This document shows positions 31,701 to 40,700 of a DNA stretch of 64,000 bases, one piece after another. The stretch comes from Octopus vulgaris. Its lineage: Eukaryota. Each line of letters opens with the position of its first letter. Positions within the stretch are counted from its first letter, which is position 1. Position numbers: made by a program. The stretch covers positions 80,042,001 through 80,106,000 of the forward strand of contig OX597825.1 in NCBI GenBank assembly GCA_951406725.2, in the 5' to 3' direction.

Positions 31701-34700
31701 TTTTGGCTACTAATCCCAAGATTCTGAGTTCAATTCCAGGCAGTGACCTGAATCATCATCATCGTCGTTTAACGTCCGTTCTCCATGCTAGCACGGGTTG
31801 GACGGTTCGACCGGGGTTCTGGGAAGCCAGAAGGCTGCACCAGGCTCCAGTCTAATCTGGCAATGTTTCTACAGCTGGATGCCCTTCCTAACGCCAACCA
31901 CTCCGTGAGTGTAGTGGGTGCTTTTTACGTGCCACCTGCACAGGTGCCAGGCGGGGCTGGCAACGGCCACGGTCAGATTGGTGTATTTTATGTGCCACCG
32001 GCACGGAAGCCAGTCGAGGCGGTGCTGGCATCGGCCACGAGTCGGATAGTGCTTTTTACGTACCACCAGACCAGGGATCCTGGCTGGTTCAATTCGATTT
32101 CGATTTCGATTTCGCTTGCCCCAACATGTCTTCACAAGCAAAGGGGGTTGGCAAGGGTGCCTGTCATACGGTCGCATTGGAGTATTTTACGTGCCAATAA
32201 TAATAATAATAATAGCATTGAAAAATGCCTTAGGAATGAGAACCCAGGTTCAAAATTTCCCCTAAGACACCTGATGAAGGCTGGAAGGTATATCAGCCAA
32301 AGCGTTGTGTTAACAACAAACAAGATGACGAATATCCATCAAATGTAAATAATGTACATAATTCCTCATCTCTTAAATAGAACTATAATTCCATTCTATA
32401 GTAAAAGAGATATCCCAGAACTGACAGCAATTTAGTTTTGGTTTTTGTACATACACTAAAAATATGAGCTGTGTGCATATAAGAGGAATGGCATCTGGCC
32501 ACAGAAGATCTGCCTCAATAAATTCCGTCCGACCCATGCAAGCATGGAAAAGTGGACATTAAAACAATGATGTATGTTTGTGTATATGTGTGTGTGAATG
32601 TATGTTTGTGTGAGTGAGATTCTTATTTCCCAAGTGTTTGCTGGTCTGTAAACAATGGCTCCTTTAAATGAGGCTCAGGGTTTGCTTAGAATTACATTAG
32701 CGTTTCGAGTTTAGGATTGAGGTTGGTGTTAGGGTTTAAGGGGTTGGGTGGTCAGAGATGAAAATCTGTAGCTGTACTGAAATTTCTTTACACGTGCATA
32801 CAGCTCATATTTTTAGTCAATCTGTTCTTACTACATCAAATACGCTAGCACCCATTTTACTAAGTTTTTTATGCAGCAGGCATCCCTGGATGGTACTTGC
32901 ACTTGATCATTCTTTCAAGTTTTTAAGACCCCTTACAAAAAGAAATAAATAAACCTTCGGTCCCTTGATTGTTATCAGATTTTGCAAAGGAAGACAAATA
33001 AGACTGAAACATGGCTAAAGTTATCCCTCTGCTGCTAAACATTCAGACTCGCTATGCAGTTCATAATAAACTGTTAAGATTCCAGGGTTACCTCCCCTAT
33101 GTTCCTTGATCAGAATTATTCATTCCATGATTTGTTTTCATTACTAAAGTAATTAATCTAATTAAAATTAAATCTAGTATGATGTACCCACTTTACTTTA
33201 CGGGTGGGATTTCCACAAACAAACAAGTAAATACTCTGAGGAAATATTGTTATTAACACAGTAAAGTAATAACTGTGATGGTACAGCACTACAAAGTGAC
33301 CGAGGGTTGTTTTAACCATTCCACTTCACTTTCATCAGAAATGGCCCTTGGACTCAGCACAAATTACGTCAACCTCTCCGGTTCAGTAAGATCTACAATG
33401 GTTACGGTCACCATTTCCTCCTCTCTGGTTAATTAATTAAGCTTGATATGCACTCTCGTCATCGTCTTCTTCGTCACAACCATCATCCCCTCCACCACCA
33501 TCATTGCTGCCAGGCACCTCCAACCCCTCCACCACTACCATCATCATTTTTACATATGTTTTTCCATGATTGCAATACATTAGCCAGGTCATCTCCATCT
33601 GCAGTTCTTTTGTCAATATGATGATAATGGTGATGATAGTGATGAAATAAAAAGGCTTGAAACTAATCAATAGATATTGATCTATCGGTATTTTATATTT
33701 TTTCATTGTATTTTTTCCCCTTTTCTTTTTAGTACCATTGAAGCAATGAATGGTAACATCAGCTTCCAAGATGCATTAAGAACTAGGTTAAATATTATTA
33801 AACCAAGTAAAAGTATTCTTAAACAGTTTATAGAAACTCATCCACCAAAATTAACCGATGGAGTCAAGTAAGTTATTTTGTTTGTTTGTTTGATTTGCTT
33901 TTTCTTCTTTTCCATTTTTTTTTTTTTTTGCATTAATTTGTCTTTAATTAATTATCAGACCCCGGTAAGCCAGGAAGCTGCACCAGGCTCCAGTCTGATC
34001 TGGCAATGTTTCTACAGCTGGGTGCCCTTCCTAATGCCAACCACTCCATGAGTGTAGTGGGTGCTATTTACATGCCACCGGCACAGAAGCCAGTCAAGGT
34101 GGCACTGGCATCAGCCATGTTCGGATGGTGCTTTACATTTCTAATTCTAGTAAATTAAACAAATTTGGTAATTAAAAAATGAAAACATTTTTTTCAACCA
34201 GTTTGCCATTAGACATAAAATGATTTTCTTCCAAGCCATTACAATTTTTTTTTAGTAAAGAAATAACATAATATAGCATTTCACTGCATGTTTGACCCCT
34301 TTTGGATTCGCAGAGACCTGATACTTATACTACAGAAAAAAAACATTGATATCTATCTTATTTCGGGAGGATTCCGTACCATCATTGAGACTGTCGCCAA
34401 AGAAGTGAACATTCCAAAAGATCATATATTTGCAAACAGGTTGCAGTTTGATCAAGATGGTAAGTACATTATCCATCCAACATTGGTTTTTTTTTCATGC
34501 TAGTATGGGTTGAATGGGAACTATATCTGTGGTAGGAGGCTCTTCTTGGCACCAACTCTTATCTGTTTTTCATGTAAGGGATTTTTTTTTTATTCTACAT
34601 GTAGTTAGGGTTTGAAACCACCATCTGTAGACTACTGAGGATTTACAAGCTTGTTATCAAATCATAGGCTGGCGCTTCAATATTTCAGTCACTTGCAGAA

Positions 34701-37700: not shown

Positions 37701-40700
37701 CCCTTCCTACAACCAACCATTATTCATAAAGTCAAATATCGGTTAATTTTTTTTTGTTTTCTTTTCTTTTTTCTCTCCTAGGATGCTTTTATTGGTTTTG
37801 GAGGTAATGTTGTGAGGAAGAAAGTGAAGGAAGAAGCAAAATGGTTTGTGATGTCTTTTGCAGAATTAACTAATGTATTTAAAAATGGTTCCAATAATAT
37901 GGAGGTGTAAAAGAATCTGCAATTGACTGACATATTGAAGCCCCAGCCTATGGCTTAATAACAAGATTGTAAATCCTCTGTAGTCTACAGATGGTGGTTT
38001 CAAACCCTAACTACATATCTACATGAGACTATCTGAGAGCTTTTTTAACAAAGTCCAACAAGAAAGAATCTATTCTCGCCAGGAACCCTTGGAATGAAAT
38101 AAAAACCCTGCCACATATCATTAAAAATAAGACTCGAAACACAATGTTATATGTTTGATGTTGTTTTTTGTTTGTCTGTTTTTTAAACTAGAAGCAGAAT
38201 CTCAGAAAAAGTGATTGAAAGGTATTAATCCATTTACCAATGATATCAGTGGCATAAATAGCTACAATAGTCAGTATATTTAGTGGTTAGTTAGCTCCGG
38301 TAAAATGGACACTGCTATTGGCCTTCCCTCCGTTTTAATATCTAACATCAGCATCATCATCATCTACTGTTAATGTGCTAAGGCCAAATGTGTTACACTG
38401 TCAAAGGATTAGTTGAAGGGAGAGTAAGAGAAAATGAGGGAGAGAGAAGTGTTAATGATGTGAGGTAGGAGAAAGTAATAGTTATTACATGATTAAAAAG
38501 TTAGTTAAAAGGTGAGACATAGAGAAAGAGAGCTACAAATACAATGTTTAACAGAGGAATGATGTTCTGGTAGTGAGGTTAAAAGAATGCAGATAGAGAG
38601 AGGAGGGCAGTTATATTAAAAGGGAGAAGCAAATAATGTGAAAGATGCCATGTCAGCTGATGCATTATGCTGTCACATACTCTTTACTCTTTTACTTGTT
38701 TCAATCATTTGACTGCGGCCATGCTGGAGCACCGCCTTTAGTCGAGCAACTCGACCCCGGGACTTATTCTTTGTAAGCCCAGTACTTATTCTATCGGTCT
38801 CTTTTGCTGAACCGCTAAGTGACGGGGACGTAAACACACCAGCATCGGTTGTCAAGCAATGCTAGGGGGACAAACACATACATACATATACATATAAACG
38901 ACAGGCTTCTTTCAGTTTCCGTCTACCAAGTCCACTCACAAGGCATTGGTCGGCCCGGGGCTATAGCAGAAGACACTTGCCCAAGATGCCACGCTGTGGG
39001 ACTGAACCCGGAACCATGTGGTTGGTTAGCAAGCTACTTACCACACAGCCACTCCTGCGCCATGGTTAAAAAGTTTGTTGAAGTATGTGGCAGAGAGGGA
39101 GAGAAGTGTAAAGGGCTCAGCAGAGGGAAATTTTAAACATCATATATTATTGTGACTAACAGAATAACATTTTAATACTCAGTTTTTTACATCTTCTATC
39201 TGTCAGTCTATTTATCTATCCACATTGACAATTACATCGATGGGTGGACAGTAGAAAGAAAGCTTATATTAGGAGGTTTAATGATAAACTTATCATAGAT
39301 AAGAAAACAGATTTTCCAATGAAAGTGTAATATGTTAGCGAAGTAGCTACGGATGTTGTTTGTTTTTAATTTTAAAACAGTACACCTCCACCACCACGCA
39401 ACTGACACTTTTAAACAGTCTTAATTATGGAACAATAACGAAGAAGACACAATGTATTTAACATAATGAAAAGGTTTTAGAAAGTTCTATGAATTTATGC
39501 ATCAAAAATAGAAACCTCAACATTTATGAAACGTGGTGTTTCCATGGATCTCATATGCATAGGTGCAGGAGTGGCTGTGTGGTAAGTAGCTTGCTTACCA
39601 ACCACATGGTTCCAGGTTCAGTTACATGGCACCTTGGGCAAGTGTCTTCTACTATAGCCTCGGGCCGACCAAAGCCTTGTGAGTGGATTTGGTTGATGGA
39701 AACTGAAAGAAGCCTGTTGTATATATGTGTGTCTGTATTTGTCCCCCCATCATCGCTTGACAACTGATGCTGGTGTGTTTATATCCCTGTAACTTAGCAG
39801 TTCAGCAAAAGAGACCGATAGAATAAGTACTAGGCTTACAAAGTATAAGCCCTGAGGTCGATTTGCTTGACTAAAGGCAGTGCTCCAGCATGGCCACAGT
39901 CAAATGACTGAAACAAGTAAAAGAGTATGTATGAAAACATTTTCACTACATTCAAAACAAACTCCCTAGAAATCTTTTATCTTTTACTTGTTTCAGTCAT
40001 TAGACTGCGGCTATGCTGGGGCAGCAATGCCTTGAAGAATGGATTAACTCCAGTATTTATTTTTTTGTTTTTTAAGCTTGGTTCTTATTCAATTGATCTG
40101 TTTTAACAAACCACAAAATTACAAGGATATAAACAGAATTTCTACAGCTGGTGCCAACCACTCCAAGAGTGTAGTGGGTGCTTTTACAGGCCACCAGCAC
40201 GAGGGCCAGTCAGGCGGTACTGGCAACGTCCACGTTGAAATAGTGCTTTTTATGTGCCACCTGCACAGGAGCCAGTCCAGCGGCACTGGCAACGACCTTG
40301 CTCGAATGTTTTTTTTACATGCCACCAGCACAAATGCCAGTAAGGCGACGCGGATAACGATCACACTCGGATGGTGTGTTTTACATGTCACCGGCACAGT
40401 GGCCAGCTTGTTGCTCTTGTCTATAAACATAATGCTTTTTGTATCCCGAAAACTGAGGCCATTACTTTCCCTGCAGATAAAAATTAGCTTTGCCTTCTTT
40501 GGAGCAGGTGAGGAGGGATGGTGCCACTGTATGGATTGTCTCTTTGCCTGTGGCTCAAAGTGATGAATCCAACACTCATCCTGGCTTGGAAACATTCACG
40601 GAAACCATCTGGATCTGCCTTGACCAGTGTCAGATTTTCTCTAATGTGATGAACCTGATGCACTTTTGGTCAGATGCCAGAAGACATAGCATCCACCGAG

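What the first reader, a model, noticed from the sequence alone, without database searches (positions are those of the whole stretch)
34599..38016. PSPH intron carries an antisense copy of its own last exon and 3'UTR plus a sense decoy: competing long dsRNA in one pre-mRNA
Seen: 34599-34812 (coding intron 3) is the reverse complement of 37806-38016 (C-terminal codons, stop and about 105 nt of 3'UTR), roughly 90% identical by eye. A second, sense copy at 35571-35781 pairs with 34703-34913 across a spacer of about 660 nt. The antisense arm therefore has two partners that overlap over 34703-34812. Pairing with the intronic copy gives an intron-internal hairpin. Pairing with the true terminal exon loops out exon 4 (149 nt, catalytic motifs III and IV) and makes the end of the CDS and the UTR double-stranded. 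Established: ADAR editing needs an editing-complementary sequence, often intronic, and coleoid cephalopods recode mRNA extensively; competing pairings also control exon choice in other genes. Inference: this is a self-derived, newly formed editing-complementary sequence or structural switch, or a hairpin siRNA source that targets PSPH.
Basis: partly seen in the sequence, partly recalled or inferred. Interest (0 to 1): 0.85.

Follow-up and report, generated by a model that had tools for sequence, protein, structure and literature searches.

The report
Octopus PSPH exon copies inside its intron
An octopus phosphoserine phosphatase gene carries two decaying copies of the end of its own last exon inside an upstream intron; they should fold the pre-mRNA into long double-stranded RNA, but they look like by-products of DNA copying errors rather than a regulatory device.

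Summary
A (34599-34916, antisense), B (35568-35781, sense) and T (37806-38016: last 105 nt of the PSPH coding sequence plus about 106 nt of 3'UTR) are related at 92.5% (A/T, 213 nt, E=6e-86), 96.7% (A/B, 214 nt) and 95% (B/T, 107 nt).

- A is an inverted copy of an internal piece of the last exon.
- The extra 105 nt shared by A and B (34812-34916) is intron sequence flanking A, not exon.
- B is a later inverted copy of half of A plus that flank. It landed inside an older SINE-like repeat and replaced about 16 nt of it.
- A second SINE-like repeat then inserted on the A side.

Folding gives a three-way structure, not an either/or switch. B takes A's coding-derived half. T pairs with A mainly over the 3'UTR and about 20 nt at the stop codon.

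Nothing indicates selection for pairing. The siRNA reading is disfavoured by a mollusc small-RNA survey.

Best reading: nested templated inverted duplications, probably neutral, giving an ordinary promiscuous ADAR substrate. Editing, small RNAs and conservation in other octopods could not be tested.

The parts
34312..34459 (+).
   Evidence: tblastn of P0003 residues 142-191, 94% identity including read-through into the intron. GT at 34460 is read from the sequence.
34599..34702 (-). A_U: antisense copy of the first ~105 nt of the PSPH 3'UTR (source 37913-38016)
   Evidence: 108-nt arm, 91% complementary. Nine substitutions and a 2-nt indel against T. Pairs with T_U in the MFE (95 pairs) and in the ensemble (93.3 expected pairs).
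34703..34811 (-). A_E: antisense copy of the last 105 nt of the PSPH CDS including the stop (source 37806-37912). This is the part with two possible partners, B_E and T_E.
   Evidence: 95% against T and about 98% against B. tblastn finds it as a 33-residue, 91% match on the minus strand. Expected pairs are 83.5 with B_E and 22.2 with T_E.
34812..34916 (.). X: intron sequence flanking A that was copied with A_E to make B. It is not derived from the exon.
   Evidence: Homology to T stops sharply at 34811/37806. The only other copy in the window is 35568-35672. 100 pairs with B_X.
34917..35186 (+). F2: SINE-like interspersed repeat with a (GAT)n tail, inserted into the A side after B was copied
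   Evidence: Aligns with 5 other copies in the window, and the flanks diverge after the (GAT)n tail in all 6. It is absent from the matching point in B.
35187..35208 (.). 22-nt continuation of the A-side arm beyond the F2 insertion
   Evidence: 21 of 22 nt match the reverse complement of 35547-35568, directly next to X in B.
35503..35544 (-). Left piece of an antisense F1 SINE-like repeat that B interrupts
   Evidence: Collinear with 4 of 4 other F1 copies compared. The match ends at 35544 and resumes at 35775 with about 16 nt of the repeat missing. At least 9 further copies of this segment are in the window.
35545..35781 (+). B: sense copy = short filler + 22-nt extension (35547-35568) + X copy (35568-35672) + copy of the last 105 nt of the CDS with its stop changed to TAG (35673-35781). 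It carries no 3'UTR part.
   Evidence: tblastn gives a 34-residue match at 91%. The 7 nt at its right end overlap the resumption of F1 (imperfect microhomology).
35775..35855 (-). Right piece of the interrupted antisense F1 repeat
35968..36116 (+).
   Evidence: 100% match to P0003 residues 191-240. Weak Pfam PF00702 match at E=0.059, below the cut-off.
37782..37910 (+). Last PSPH coding exon, stop TAA at 37908-37910
   Evidence: 100% match to P0003 residues 241-282. Its C-terminus aligns with PSPH of a bivalve, a fish and a snake.
37806..38016 (+). T: the source segment (T_E 37806-37912 coding, T_U 37913-38016 3'UTR)
38098..38103 (+). First AATAAA after the stop, the likely poly(A) signal. T ends 82 nt before it.
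   Evidence: Motif scan. Its use as the poly(A) signal is inferred.
36494..36898 (+). F1 repeat in the last intron, inverted partner of 38675-39077. This is a further long potential duplex around the last exon.
   Evidence: 407 nt at 89.9%; I2/I3.

Best explanation
These are the remains of two successive small inverted duplications made at the DNA level, and they are probably neutral. No known transposon carried them and they are not a retrocopy.

Inferred history:
1. An internal 211-nt piece of the last PSPH exon (24 nt after its acceptor to 106 nt past the stop) was copied in reverse orientation into the intron 3 kb upstream. This made A.
2. About 236 nt (A's coding-derived half plus adjacent intron) were copied again in reverse orientation, about 340 nt downstream, into a break inside an existing SINE-like repeat. 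About 16 nt of that repeat were lost. This made B.
3. A second SINE-like repeat inserted next to A and widened the spacer to 651 nt.

This is the pattern left by template switching or templated gap-filling during replication or break repair.

Predicted behaviour at the RNA level (not observed): A and B form a ~214-bp intronic hairpin as soon as B is transcribed. That hairpin is an ordinary promiscuous ADAR substrate, like the inverted SINE pairs nearby, and it leaves with the intron. If the intron is still present when the last exon is made, A's free 3'UTR-derived half can pair with the first ~105 nt of the 3'UTR and a few terminal codons.

Shown: the copies, their order, their junctions and the fold. 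Inferred: the mutational mechanism, neutrality and any editing.
For: Direction T to A: T is the conserved C-terminus, identical to O. sinensis PSPH and alignable to PSPH of distant animals.

Direction A to B: B splits an antisense F1 repeat that is collinear on both sides in 4 of 4 comparisons, with about 16 nt missing. In B, X runs straight into a 22-nt stretch that on the A side lies beyond a 270-nt F2 repeat (21 of 22 nt match; F2 boundaries from 6 aligned copies).

Against a retrocopy: A ends 82 nt before the first AATAAA. The A-run after it is separated from the copy by 7 nt. B contains intron sequence.

Consistent with decay:
- A and B share 4 differences from T, of which 3 change the amino acid and 1 does not. 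T is identical to the O. sinensis protein.
- B's stop codon has changed to TAG.
- Of 14 A/T substitutions, only 3 keep a G-U pair and 11 are true mismatches. Of 7 A/B substitutions, 3 keep G-U and 4 do not.

Against mis-assembly: the copies are 3-8% diverged and sit in different repeat contexts.

Context:
- The window holds 24 inverted pairs of at least 100 nt and 85% identity. Six have spacers of 4 kb or less, including another single-copy pair at 20842-20953 / 21569-21681.
- Template switching is known to create nearby inverted repeats (PMC7954356, passages read; PMC8421209, abstract in the listing).
- In O. vulgaris most A-to-I editing lies in introns and 3'UTRs, where hairpins are (PMC9699675, passages read).
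- Across metazoans including O. bimaculoides, editing sites are enriched where a reverse-complement match lies nearby (bioRxiv 10.1101/2020.01.19.911685, passages read).
Against: - No orthologous locus could be examined, so the empty sites, the age and any conservation of A and B are unknown.
- The counts of substitutions are too small to exclude weak constraint.
- A-B identity of 96.7% is higher than A-T. I read this as a younger event, but it could also reflect conversion or selection for pairing.
- Junction microhomology is weak: 7 imperfect nt at B's right end and a few filler bases at its left. No junction evidence exists for A.
- Neutrality is a default, not a result. No RNA data were available.
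Confidence: 0.65

Rival explanations
1. Self-derived editing-complementary sequence with a decoy. A pairs with the true last exon in the pre-mRNA and directs ADAR to the C-terminal codons and the 3'UTR. B competes for A and tunes how much of the exon becomes double-stranded.
For: The complementarity is real and long: A+T duplex -314 kcal/mol, and A_U+T_U alone -154. In both the MFE and the ensemble, A_U pairs with T_U (95 pairs; 93.3 expected) and about 18-22 pairs reach into the last codons. Editing in metazoans, octopus included, is enriched where a reverse-complement match lies nearby. Most octopus editing is in introns and 3'UTRs.
Against: - The coding part of T is mostly not paired with A: 22 of about 107 expected pairs against 83.5 for B.
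- B is transcribed 2.1 kb before T and matches A better.
- The pairing needs intron 3 to persist until the last exon is made, across 3 kb and another intron.
- There is no bias towards pair-preserving changes (3 G-U against 11 mismatches).
- B's position inside a repeat and the later repeat insertion look accidental.
- A full-text search found no paper holding 'phosphoserine phosphatase', 'octopus' and 'editing' together (0 papers). The supplementary editing-site tables of the octopus editome papers are closed and were not seen.
Confidence: 0.12
2. Hairpin small-RNA source. The A-B hairpin is diced into siRNAs whose A-derived strand is antisense to PSPH mRNA, giving self-limiting expression, as in Drosophila hpRNA loci or young plant MIRNA genes born by inverted duplication of their targets.
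For: The architecture fits: a ~214-bp near-perfect hairpin, 109 bp of it derived from the target gene. Drosophila hpRNAs have inverted-repeat arms homologous to their target genes, for example ~200 bp of an exon (PMC10317233, passages read). Plant MIRNA genes arise by inverted duplication of target sequences (bioRxiv 10.1101/682591, title and abstract in the listing).
Against: [quoted passage not shown] The hairpin is intronic and nuclear. Long dsRNA in an ADAR-rich animal is more likely to be edited than diced. No small-RNA data were available here.
Confidence: 0.04
3. Splicing or back-splicing effect. A-T pairing loops out exon 4 and causes skipping or a circular RNA. Alternatively, the A-B hairpin shortens the effective length of intron 3 (from 1508 nt to about 330 nt outside the hairpin) and helps its removal.
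For: A lies 139 nt after the 5' splice site and B ends 186 nt before the 3' splice site. Inverted elements flank exon 4: A in intron 3 and T in exon 5, and F1 fragments at 35510-35544 and 35775-35815 face the F1 copy at 36563-36654 (I7 and I8).
Against: Exon 4 is 149 nt, so skipping shifts the frame and removes conserved HAD residues (the motif assignment is recalled, not tested). No alternative exon exists. circRNAs were reported as low overall in O. vulgaris (PMC9699675, passage read). No transcript data were available.
Confidence: 0.05
4. Assembly artefact: chimeric or fold-back reads created false inverted copies.
For: Inverted duplicates with short spacers are a known artefact class (recalled, not tested). 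Only one assembly was seen.
Against: Artefactual copies would be near-identical. These differ by 3.3% (A/B) and 7.5% (A/T), carry shared and private substitutions, and each sits in its own repeat context.
Confidence: 0.03
5. A is a 5'-truncated retrocopy of PSPH mRNA inserted by LINE machinery.
For: In sense orientation A is followed by a run of 10 A after 7 other bases. All of A lies within one exon, so intron loss cannot argue either way.
Against: The copy ends 82 nt upstream of the first AATAAA, and no poly(A) signal lies just before 38016. I saw no target-site duplication by eye. T-runs are common in this intron (D2). B plainly includes intron sequence.
Confidence: 0.06

Closest known systems
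Inverted SINE/Alu pairs in introns and 3'UTRs as promiscuous ADAR substrates
   Same: A long (>200 bp), imperfect, intramolecular duplex in a pre-mRNA with a spacer under 1 kb. The same window has such pairs made of SINE-like repeats, for example 36494-36898 / 38675-39077. This class is where most editing lies in octopus and other animals.
   Different: The arms are not a mobile element. They are single-copy sequence derived from the host gene's own last exon plus intron, so one arm is also complementary to the mature mRNA.
Intronic editing-complementary sequences (ECS) of recoding sites, e.g. those predicted for Drosophila sites (PMC5705066, passages read)
   Same: An intronic element complementary to an exon of the same transcript.
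   Different: Classical ECSs are short and conserved between species, and they sit beside one or a few specific sites. This one is 211 nt and lies 3 kb and one exon upstream. It is decaying, and a better intronic partner outcompetes the exon for the coding part. No editing has been shown.
[quoted passage not shown]
   Same: A hairpin whose arms derive from an exon of a protein-coding gene.
   Different: Those loci are separate transcription units that act in trans through Dicer. This hairpin sits inside the target gene's own intron, in a phylum where no endo-siRNA pathway was detected.
Template-switch or MMBIR templated insertions that create local inverted repeats
   Same: Reverse-complement copies of nearby sequence (3 kb and about 0.3-0.6 kb away). 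The insertion came with a small deletion at the acceptor site, and the events are nested.
   Different: The great-ape events described in PMC7954356 span tens to hundreds of nucleotides within a mutation cluster. Here the copies are 211-236 nt and the first template lies 3 kb away. Junction microhomology is weak.
Competing RNA pairings that choose mutually exclusive exons (docking and selector sites; recalled, no paper read here)
   Same: One arm with two alternative partners.
   Different: There is no cluster of alternative exons. The two pairings split the arm between them rather than excluding one another.

Membership tests
ADAR editing-complementary sequence | Intronic sequence complementary to the exon that is edited | tested here: met
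   A is 92.5% complementary to 37806-38016 over 213 nt.
ADAR editing-complementary sequence | The exon-ECS duplex is the favoured structure of the pre-mRNA | tested here: inconclusive
   Met for the 3'UTR part (93.3 expected pairs). Not met for the coding part (22.2 expected pairs with T against 83.5 with B). These are equilibrium folds of a 3.4-kb RNA and ignore splicing kinetics.
ADAR editing-complementary sequence | A-to-I editing observed at the paired exon sites | not testable with these tools
   No RNA-seq was available. A full-text search for PSPH, octopus and editing found 0 papers. Supplementary site tables are closed.
ADAR editing-complementary sequence | Conservation of the ECS, or pair-preserving substitutions | tested here: not met
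   Within the window, 3 G-U against 11 true mismatches in A/T and 3 against 4 in A/B. Cross-species conservation is not testable because no octopod genome is in any open collection.
hpRNA / endo-siRNA locus | Long inverted repeat with arms homologous to a target gene | tested here: met
   214-bp hairpin, 109 bp of it derived from the PSPH CDS end.
hpRNA / endo-siRNA locus | Dicer-dependent 21-22-nt small RNAs from the arms | not testable with these tools
   No small-RNA data. The published mollusc survey reports no evidence of endo-siRNAs (PMC12479628).
Processed retrocopy | The copy reaches the mRNA 3' end and is followed directly by a poly(A) tract | tested here: not met
   The copy ends at 38016, 82 nt before the first AATAAA. 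The A10 run is separated from the copy by 7 nt.
Processed retrocopy | Target-site duplication | tested here: inconclusive
   None was seen by eye at 34598/34812. No orthologous empty site was available.
Templated inverted insertion (template switch / MMBIR type) | Reverse-complement copy of nearby sequence inserted at a break, with loss or filler at the acceptor site | tested here: met
   B (about 230 nt) replaces about 16 nt of an F1 repeat in 4 of 4 comparisons, with a few filler bases at its left junction.
Templated inverted insertion (template switch / MMBIR type) | Microhomology at the junctions | tested here: inconclusive
   The right junction of B has a 7-nt imperfect overlap between the copy and the repeat. 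The junctions of A cannot be judged without the ancestral sequence.
Competing-pairing exon selector | Alternative exons whose choice depends on which pairing forms | tested here: not met
   Only one exon (149 nt, frame-shifting if skipped) lies between the arms. The arm is shared between partners rather than switched.
Phosphoserine phosphatase (host gene) | Exon-level identity to an annotated PSPH, HAD hydrolase domain | tested here: met
   Six exon-level tblastn matches at 93-100% to O. sinensis PSPH isoform X1 (P0003; precomputed Pfam PF00702, PF12710).

The most novel reading that the evidence does not exclude
The arrangement is a working three-way RNA junction. The intronic hairpin A-B shields the PSPH coding end. 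A's free half then clamps the first ~105 nt of the 3'UTR and the last few codons into dsRNA, so ADAR editing (or nuclear retention) of PSPH mRNA scales with how slowly intron 3 is removed. This would be a self-derived editing-complementary sequence with a built-in decoy, born from the gene's own exon.
Probability: 0.07. Interest if true: 0.7.

Novelty: new member of a known kind. Interest (0 to 1): 0.3.

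Why it matters
If the neutral reading holds, this locus is a clean, datable example of how template-switch errors seed long exon-complementary hairpins in a genome whose transcripts are heavily edited. 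That is raw material from which editing-complementary sequences could arise. It also warns that such geometry alone does not indicate function. If the pairing with the true exon does drive editing of PSPH mRNA, it would show an editing-complementary sequence at birth, with its source still recognisable, which has been hard to catch.

Tried and rejected
- X as exon or upstream intron sequence of the last exon (a diverged larger duplicate): rejected. Local alignment stops sharply at 37806 and finds nothing upstream.
- A or B as part of a multi-copy element that captured the exon: rejected within this window. The arms hit only each other and T. The genome at large could not be searched.
- B as an annotated alternative last exon:
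  - The T peptide search over longer proteins returned only the O. sinensis PSPH cluster and a bivalve PSPH (2 proteins among 4 candidates).
  - The B peptide search over proteins of 37-119 aa found no candidate.
  - The open frame through X in both copies is not unusual for 35 codons.
- Polarising the four A/B-versus-T differences with outgroups: inconclusive, because the outgroups are too distant.
- Extending A's left boundary with gaps: the gain was marginal, so I did not adopt it.
- Known RNA families: Rfam at E<=0.1 over 26000-40000 gave 2 matches, both far below their gathering scores (32 and 30 bits against 70). I take them as chance.
- tRNA scan: ARAGORN found 0 genes in 33000-40000. 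'SINE-like' therefore rests on copy number, the simple-repeat tail and my reading of a B-box-like motif, not on a detected tRNA.
I did not pursue it.

Full report
**What is there**

The window carries an octopus phosphoserine phosphatase (PSPH) gene on the + strand.
- The translated 149-nt exon at 35968-36116 is 100% identical to 'phosphoserine phosphatase isoform X1 [Octopus sinensis]' (P0003, 282 aa).
- tblastn of that named protein against the window gives six exon-level matches at 93-100%: 26826-26954, 31368-31511, 33734-~33868, 34312-34459, 35968-36116 and 37782-37910.
- Exons were translated and searched one at a time. I built no joined spliced model and did no search with one.
- The window differs from P0003 by one residue in the second exon and in the N-terminal exon. 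It is therefore this species or a very close relative.

- The intron 34460-35967 contains an antisense arm A (34599-34916) and a sense copy B (35568-35781).
- The source T is 37806-38016. It starts 24 nt inside the last exon, runs through the stop (TAA 37908-37910) and ends 106 nt into the 3'UTR.
- Identities are A/T 92.5% over 213 nt (E=5.8e-86), A/B 96.7% over 214 nt (E=1.6e-99) and B/T 95.3% over 107 nt.
- tblastn independently finds both copies as 33-34-residue matches at 91%.

**Anatomy and order of events**

A has three parts:
- A_U (34599-34702) is complementary to the 3'UTR.
- A_E (34703-34811) is complementary to the last 105 nt of the coding sequence.
- X (34812-34916) has no counterpart in or before the last exon. 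Homology to T stops sharply at 37806.

X recurs only in B (35568-35672), so X is simply the intron sequence that flanked A.

B is an insertion. An antisense copy of an interspersed SINE-like repeat, which I call F1, matches up to 35544 and resumes at 35775. About 16 nt of the repeat are missing between these points. All 4 other F1 copies that I compared show this break. At least nine further copies of the left segment are in the window. B's right end overlaps the resumption of F1 by 7 imperfect nucleotides, and a few filler bases lie at its left end.

In B, X is followed directly by a 22-nt stretch. On the A side that stretch is found only after a 270-nt repeat of a second family, F2 (34917-35186), which ends in a (GAT)n tail. 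The match is 21 of 22 nt. F2's limits come from an alignment of six copies whose flanks all diverge after the tail.

The order of events is therefore:
1. T was copied in reverse to give A.
2. A_E plus its flank (about 236 nt) was copied in reverse into F1 to give B.
3. F2 inserted beside A and widened the spacer from about 340 nt to 651 nt.

T is the source because it is the conserved C-terminus. It is identical to the O. sinensis protein and alignable to PSPH of a bivalve, a fish and a snake.

**How the copies arose**

A retrocopy is unlikely. A ends 82 nt before the first AATAAA (38098), and the run of ten A after it is separated from it by seven bases. B also includes intron sequence.

No mobile element carries the arms within this window.

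Reverse-complement copies of nearby sequence, a small deletion with filler at the acceptor site, and nesting of events all match template switching or templated break repair. These processes are known to create nearby inverted repeats (PMC7954356, passages read; PMC8421209, abstract in the listing).

The window has one more single-copy inverted pair of the same build, 20842-20953 / 21569-21681 (90%, spacer 616 nt). This hints that such events recur in this genome.

Mis-assembly is unlikely, because the copies are 3-8% diverged and each sits in its own repeat context.

**Signs of constraint**

I found none, though the power is low.
- A and B share four differences from T. Three change the amino acid and one does not, while T equals the O. 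sinensis protein. This fits decay in the copies.
- B's stop codon is now TAG.
- Of 14 A/T substitutions, 3 leave a G-U pair and 11 are true mismatches, plus a 2-nt indel. Of 7 A/B substitutions, 3 leave G-U and 4 do not.
- The divergences (about 9% in A_U/T_U, 3.3% in A/B, four shared changes in 107 nt) fit one clock with the second event at roughly a third of the age of the first. This is my arithmetic. It is not an independent test.

**What the RNA would do**

Duplex energies:

| Pair | kcal/mol |
|---|---|
| A+B | -355 |
| A+T | -314 |
| A_E+B_E | -175 |
| A_E+T_E | -162 |
| A_U+T_U | -154 |

Paired positions in the whole-region folds (MFE of 34460-38120; ensemble of 34590-38020):

| Pairing | MFE pairs | Ensemble expected pairs |
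|---|---|---|
| A_X-B_X | 100 | 100 |
| A_E-B_E | 88 | 83.5 |
| A_U-T_U | 95 | 93.3 |
| A_E-T_E | 18 | 22.2 |

The arm is shared between its partners, not switched between them. B occupies the coding-derived half. The true exon is paired with A over its 3'UTR part and about 20 nt at the stop codon.

Kinetics should favour the same outcome, because B is transcribed 2.1 kb before T. Any A-T pairing also needs the intron to survive until the last exon is made.

These are equilibrium predictions on naked RNA.

**Context**

- Long inverted pairs are common here. The window has 24 pairs of at least 100 nt and 85% identity, six of them with spacers of 4 kb or less.
- One of these is a 407-nt F1 pair around the last exon, 36494-36898 / 38675-39077.
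- In O. vulgaris most A-to-I editing lies in introns and 3'UTRs, where hairpins are, and circRNAs are low overall (PMC9699675, passages read).
- Across 22 species including O. bimaculoides, editing sites are enriched where a reverse-complement match of at least 50 nt and 80% identity lies within 2 kb (bioRxiv 10.1101/2020.01.19.911685, passages read; published version PMC9989829 seen in a listing only).
- The A-B hairpin is therefore very probably edited, as any such hairpin would be.

- The ECS reading remains possible for the 3'UTR and the last codons. It has no positive support, and a full-text search for PSPH, octopus and editing found 0 papers.
- The siRNA reading conflicts with a survey of 32 molluscs that found no evidence of an endo-siRNA pathway (PMC12479628, passages read). 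The architecture does resemble Drosophila hpRNAs (PMC10317233, passages read) and plant MIRNA birth by inverted duplication (listing).
- A splicing switch lacks alternative exons, and skipping the 149-nt exon shifts the frame.

**What stayed unchecked**

- No octopod genome, RNA-seq or small-RNA data were reachable.
- Supplementary editing-site tables are closed.

**Verdict**

This is a real and neatly layered structural feature. It is best explained as nested templated inverted duplications that incidentally give long dsRNA. It is a new example of known kinds, of modest interest unless editing of the mature mRNA is shown.

Noticed in passing
window 20842-20953 and 21569-21681: A second single-copy inverted pair (113 nt, 90%, spacer 616 nt) with an interspersed repeat (21196-21443) in the spacer. 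It has the same build as A-B and lies upstream of PSPH. Its arms hit only each other in the window.
   Followed up: partly
window 36494-36898 and 38675-39077: Inverted pair of F1 SINE-like repeats (407 nt, 89.9%) bracketing the last PSPH exon. The right arm lies about 570 nt beyond the first AATAAA, so it would be in the RNA only with read-through or a longer 3'UTR. A third copy at 39562-39927 is inverted relative to 38685-39061.
   Followed up: partly
window 44146-44640, 45498-47516, 54151-55023 (minus strand): A convergent GPI ethanolamine-phosphate transferase (PIGO/PIGG-like) gene. Pfam PF19316 hits 44146-44640 (E=1e-6) and PF01663 weakly hits 54151-55023. The 672-aa open frame at 45498-47516 has no Pfam match, but its nearest Atlas clusters (0.93) partly carry PIGO_PIGG. 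That is a lead only.
   Followed up: partly
window 49512-50396 (+): Open frame with Tc1/mariner-type transposase domains (HTH_Tnp_Tc3_2 E=1e-16, DDE_3 E=4e-13), lying between exons of the PIGO/PIGG-like gene.
   Followed up: no
window 26826-26954 and 31368-31511: The window's PSPH differs from the O. sinensis RefSeq-named protein P0003 by V to M in the second exon and by several residues at the start of the N-terminal exon. The window is therefore another individual, assembly or sister species.
   Followed up: no
window 35571-35781 (+) and 34703-34916 (-): In both copies the reading frame of the exon-derived part stays open back through the unrelated flank X (70 codons stop to stop in B, with two in-frame ATGs). 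No protein in the database matches it. I take it as chance.
   Followed up: yes
window 7834-7995 and 8669-8830: Inverted pair (162 nt, 94%) made of a third, highly repeated family with many partial copies across the window (for example 8512-9118, 14785-15099, 21196-21443, 43565-44174, 55606-56017), partly in tandem.
   Followed up: no
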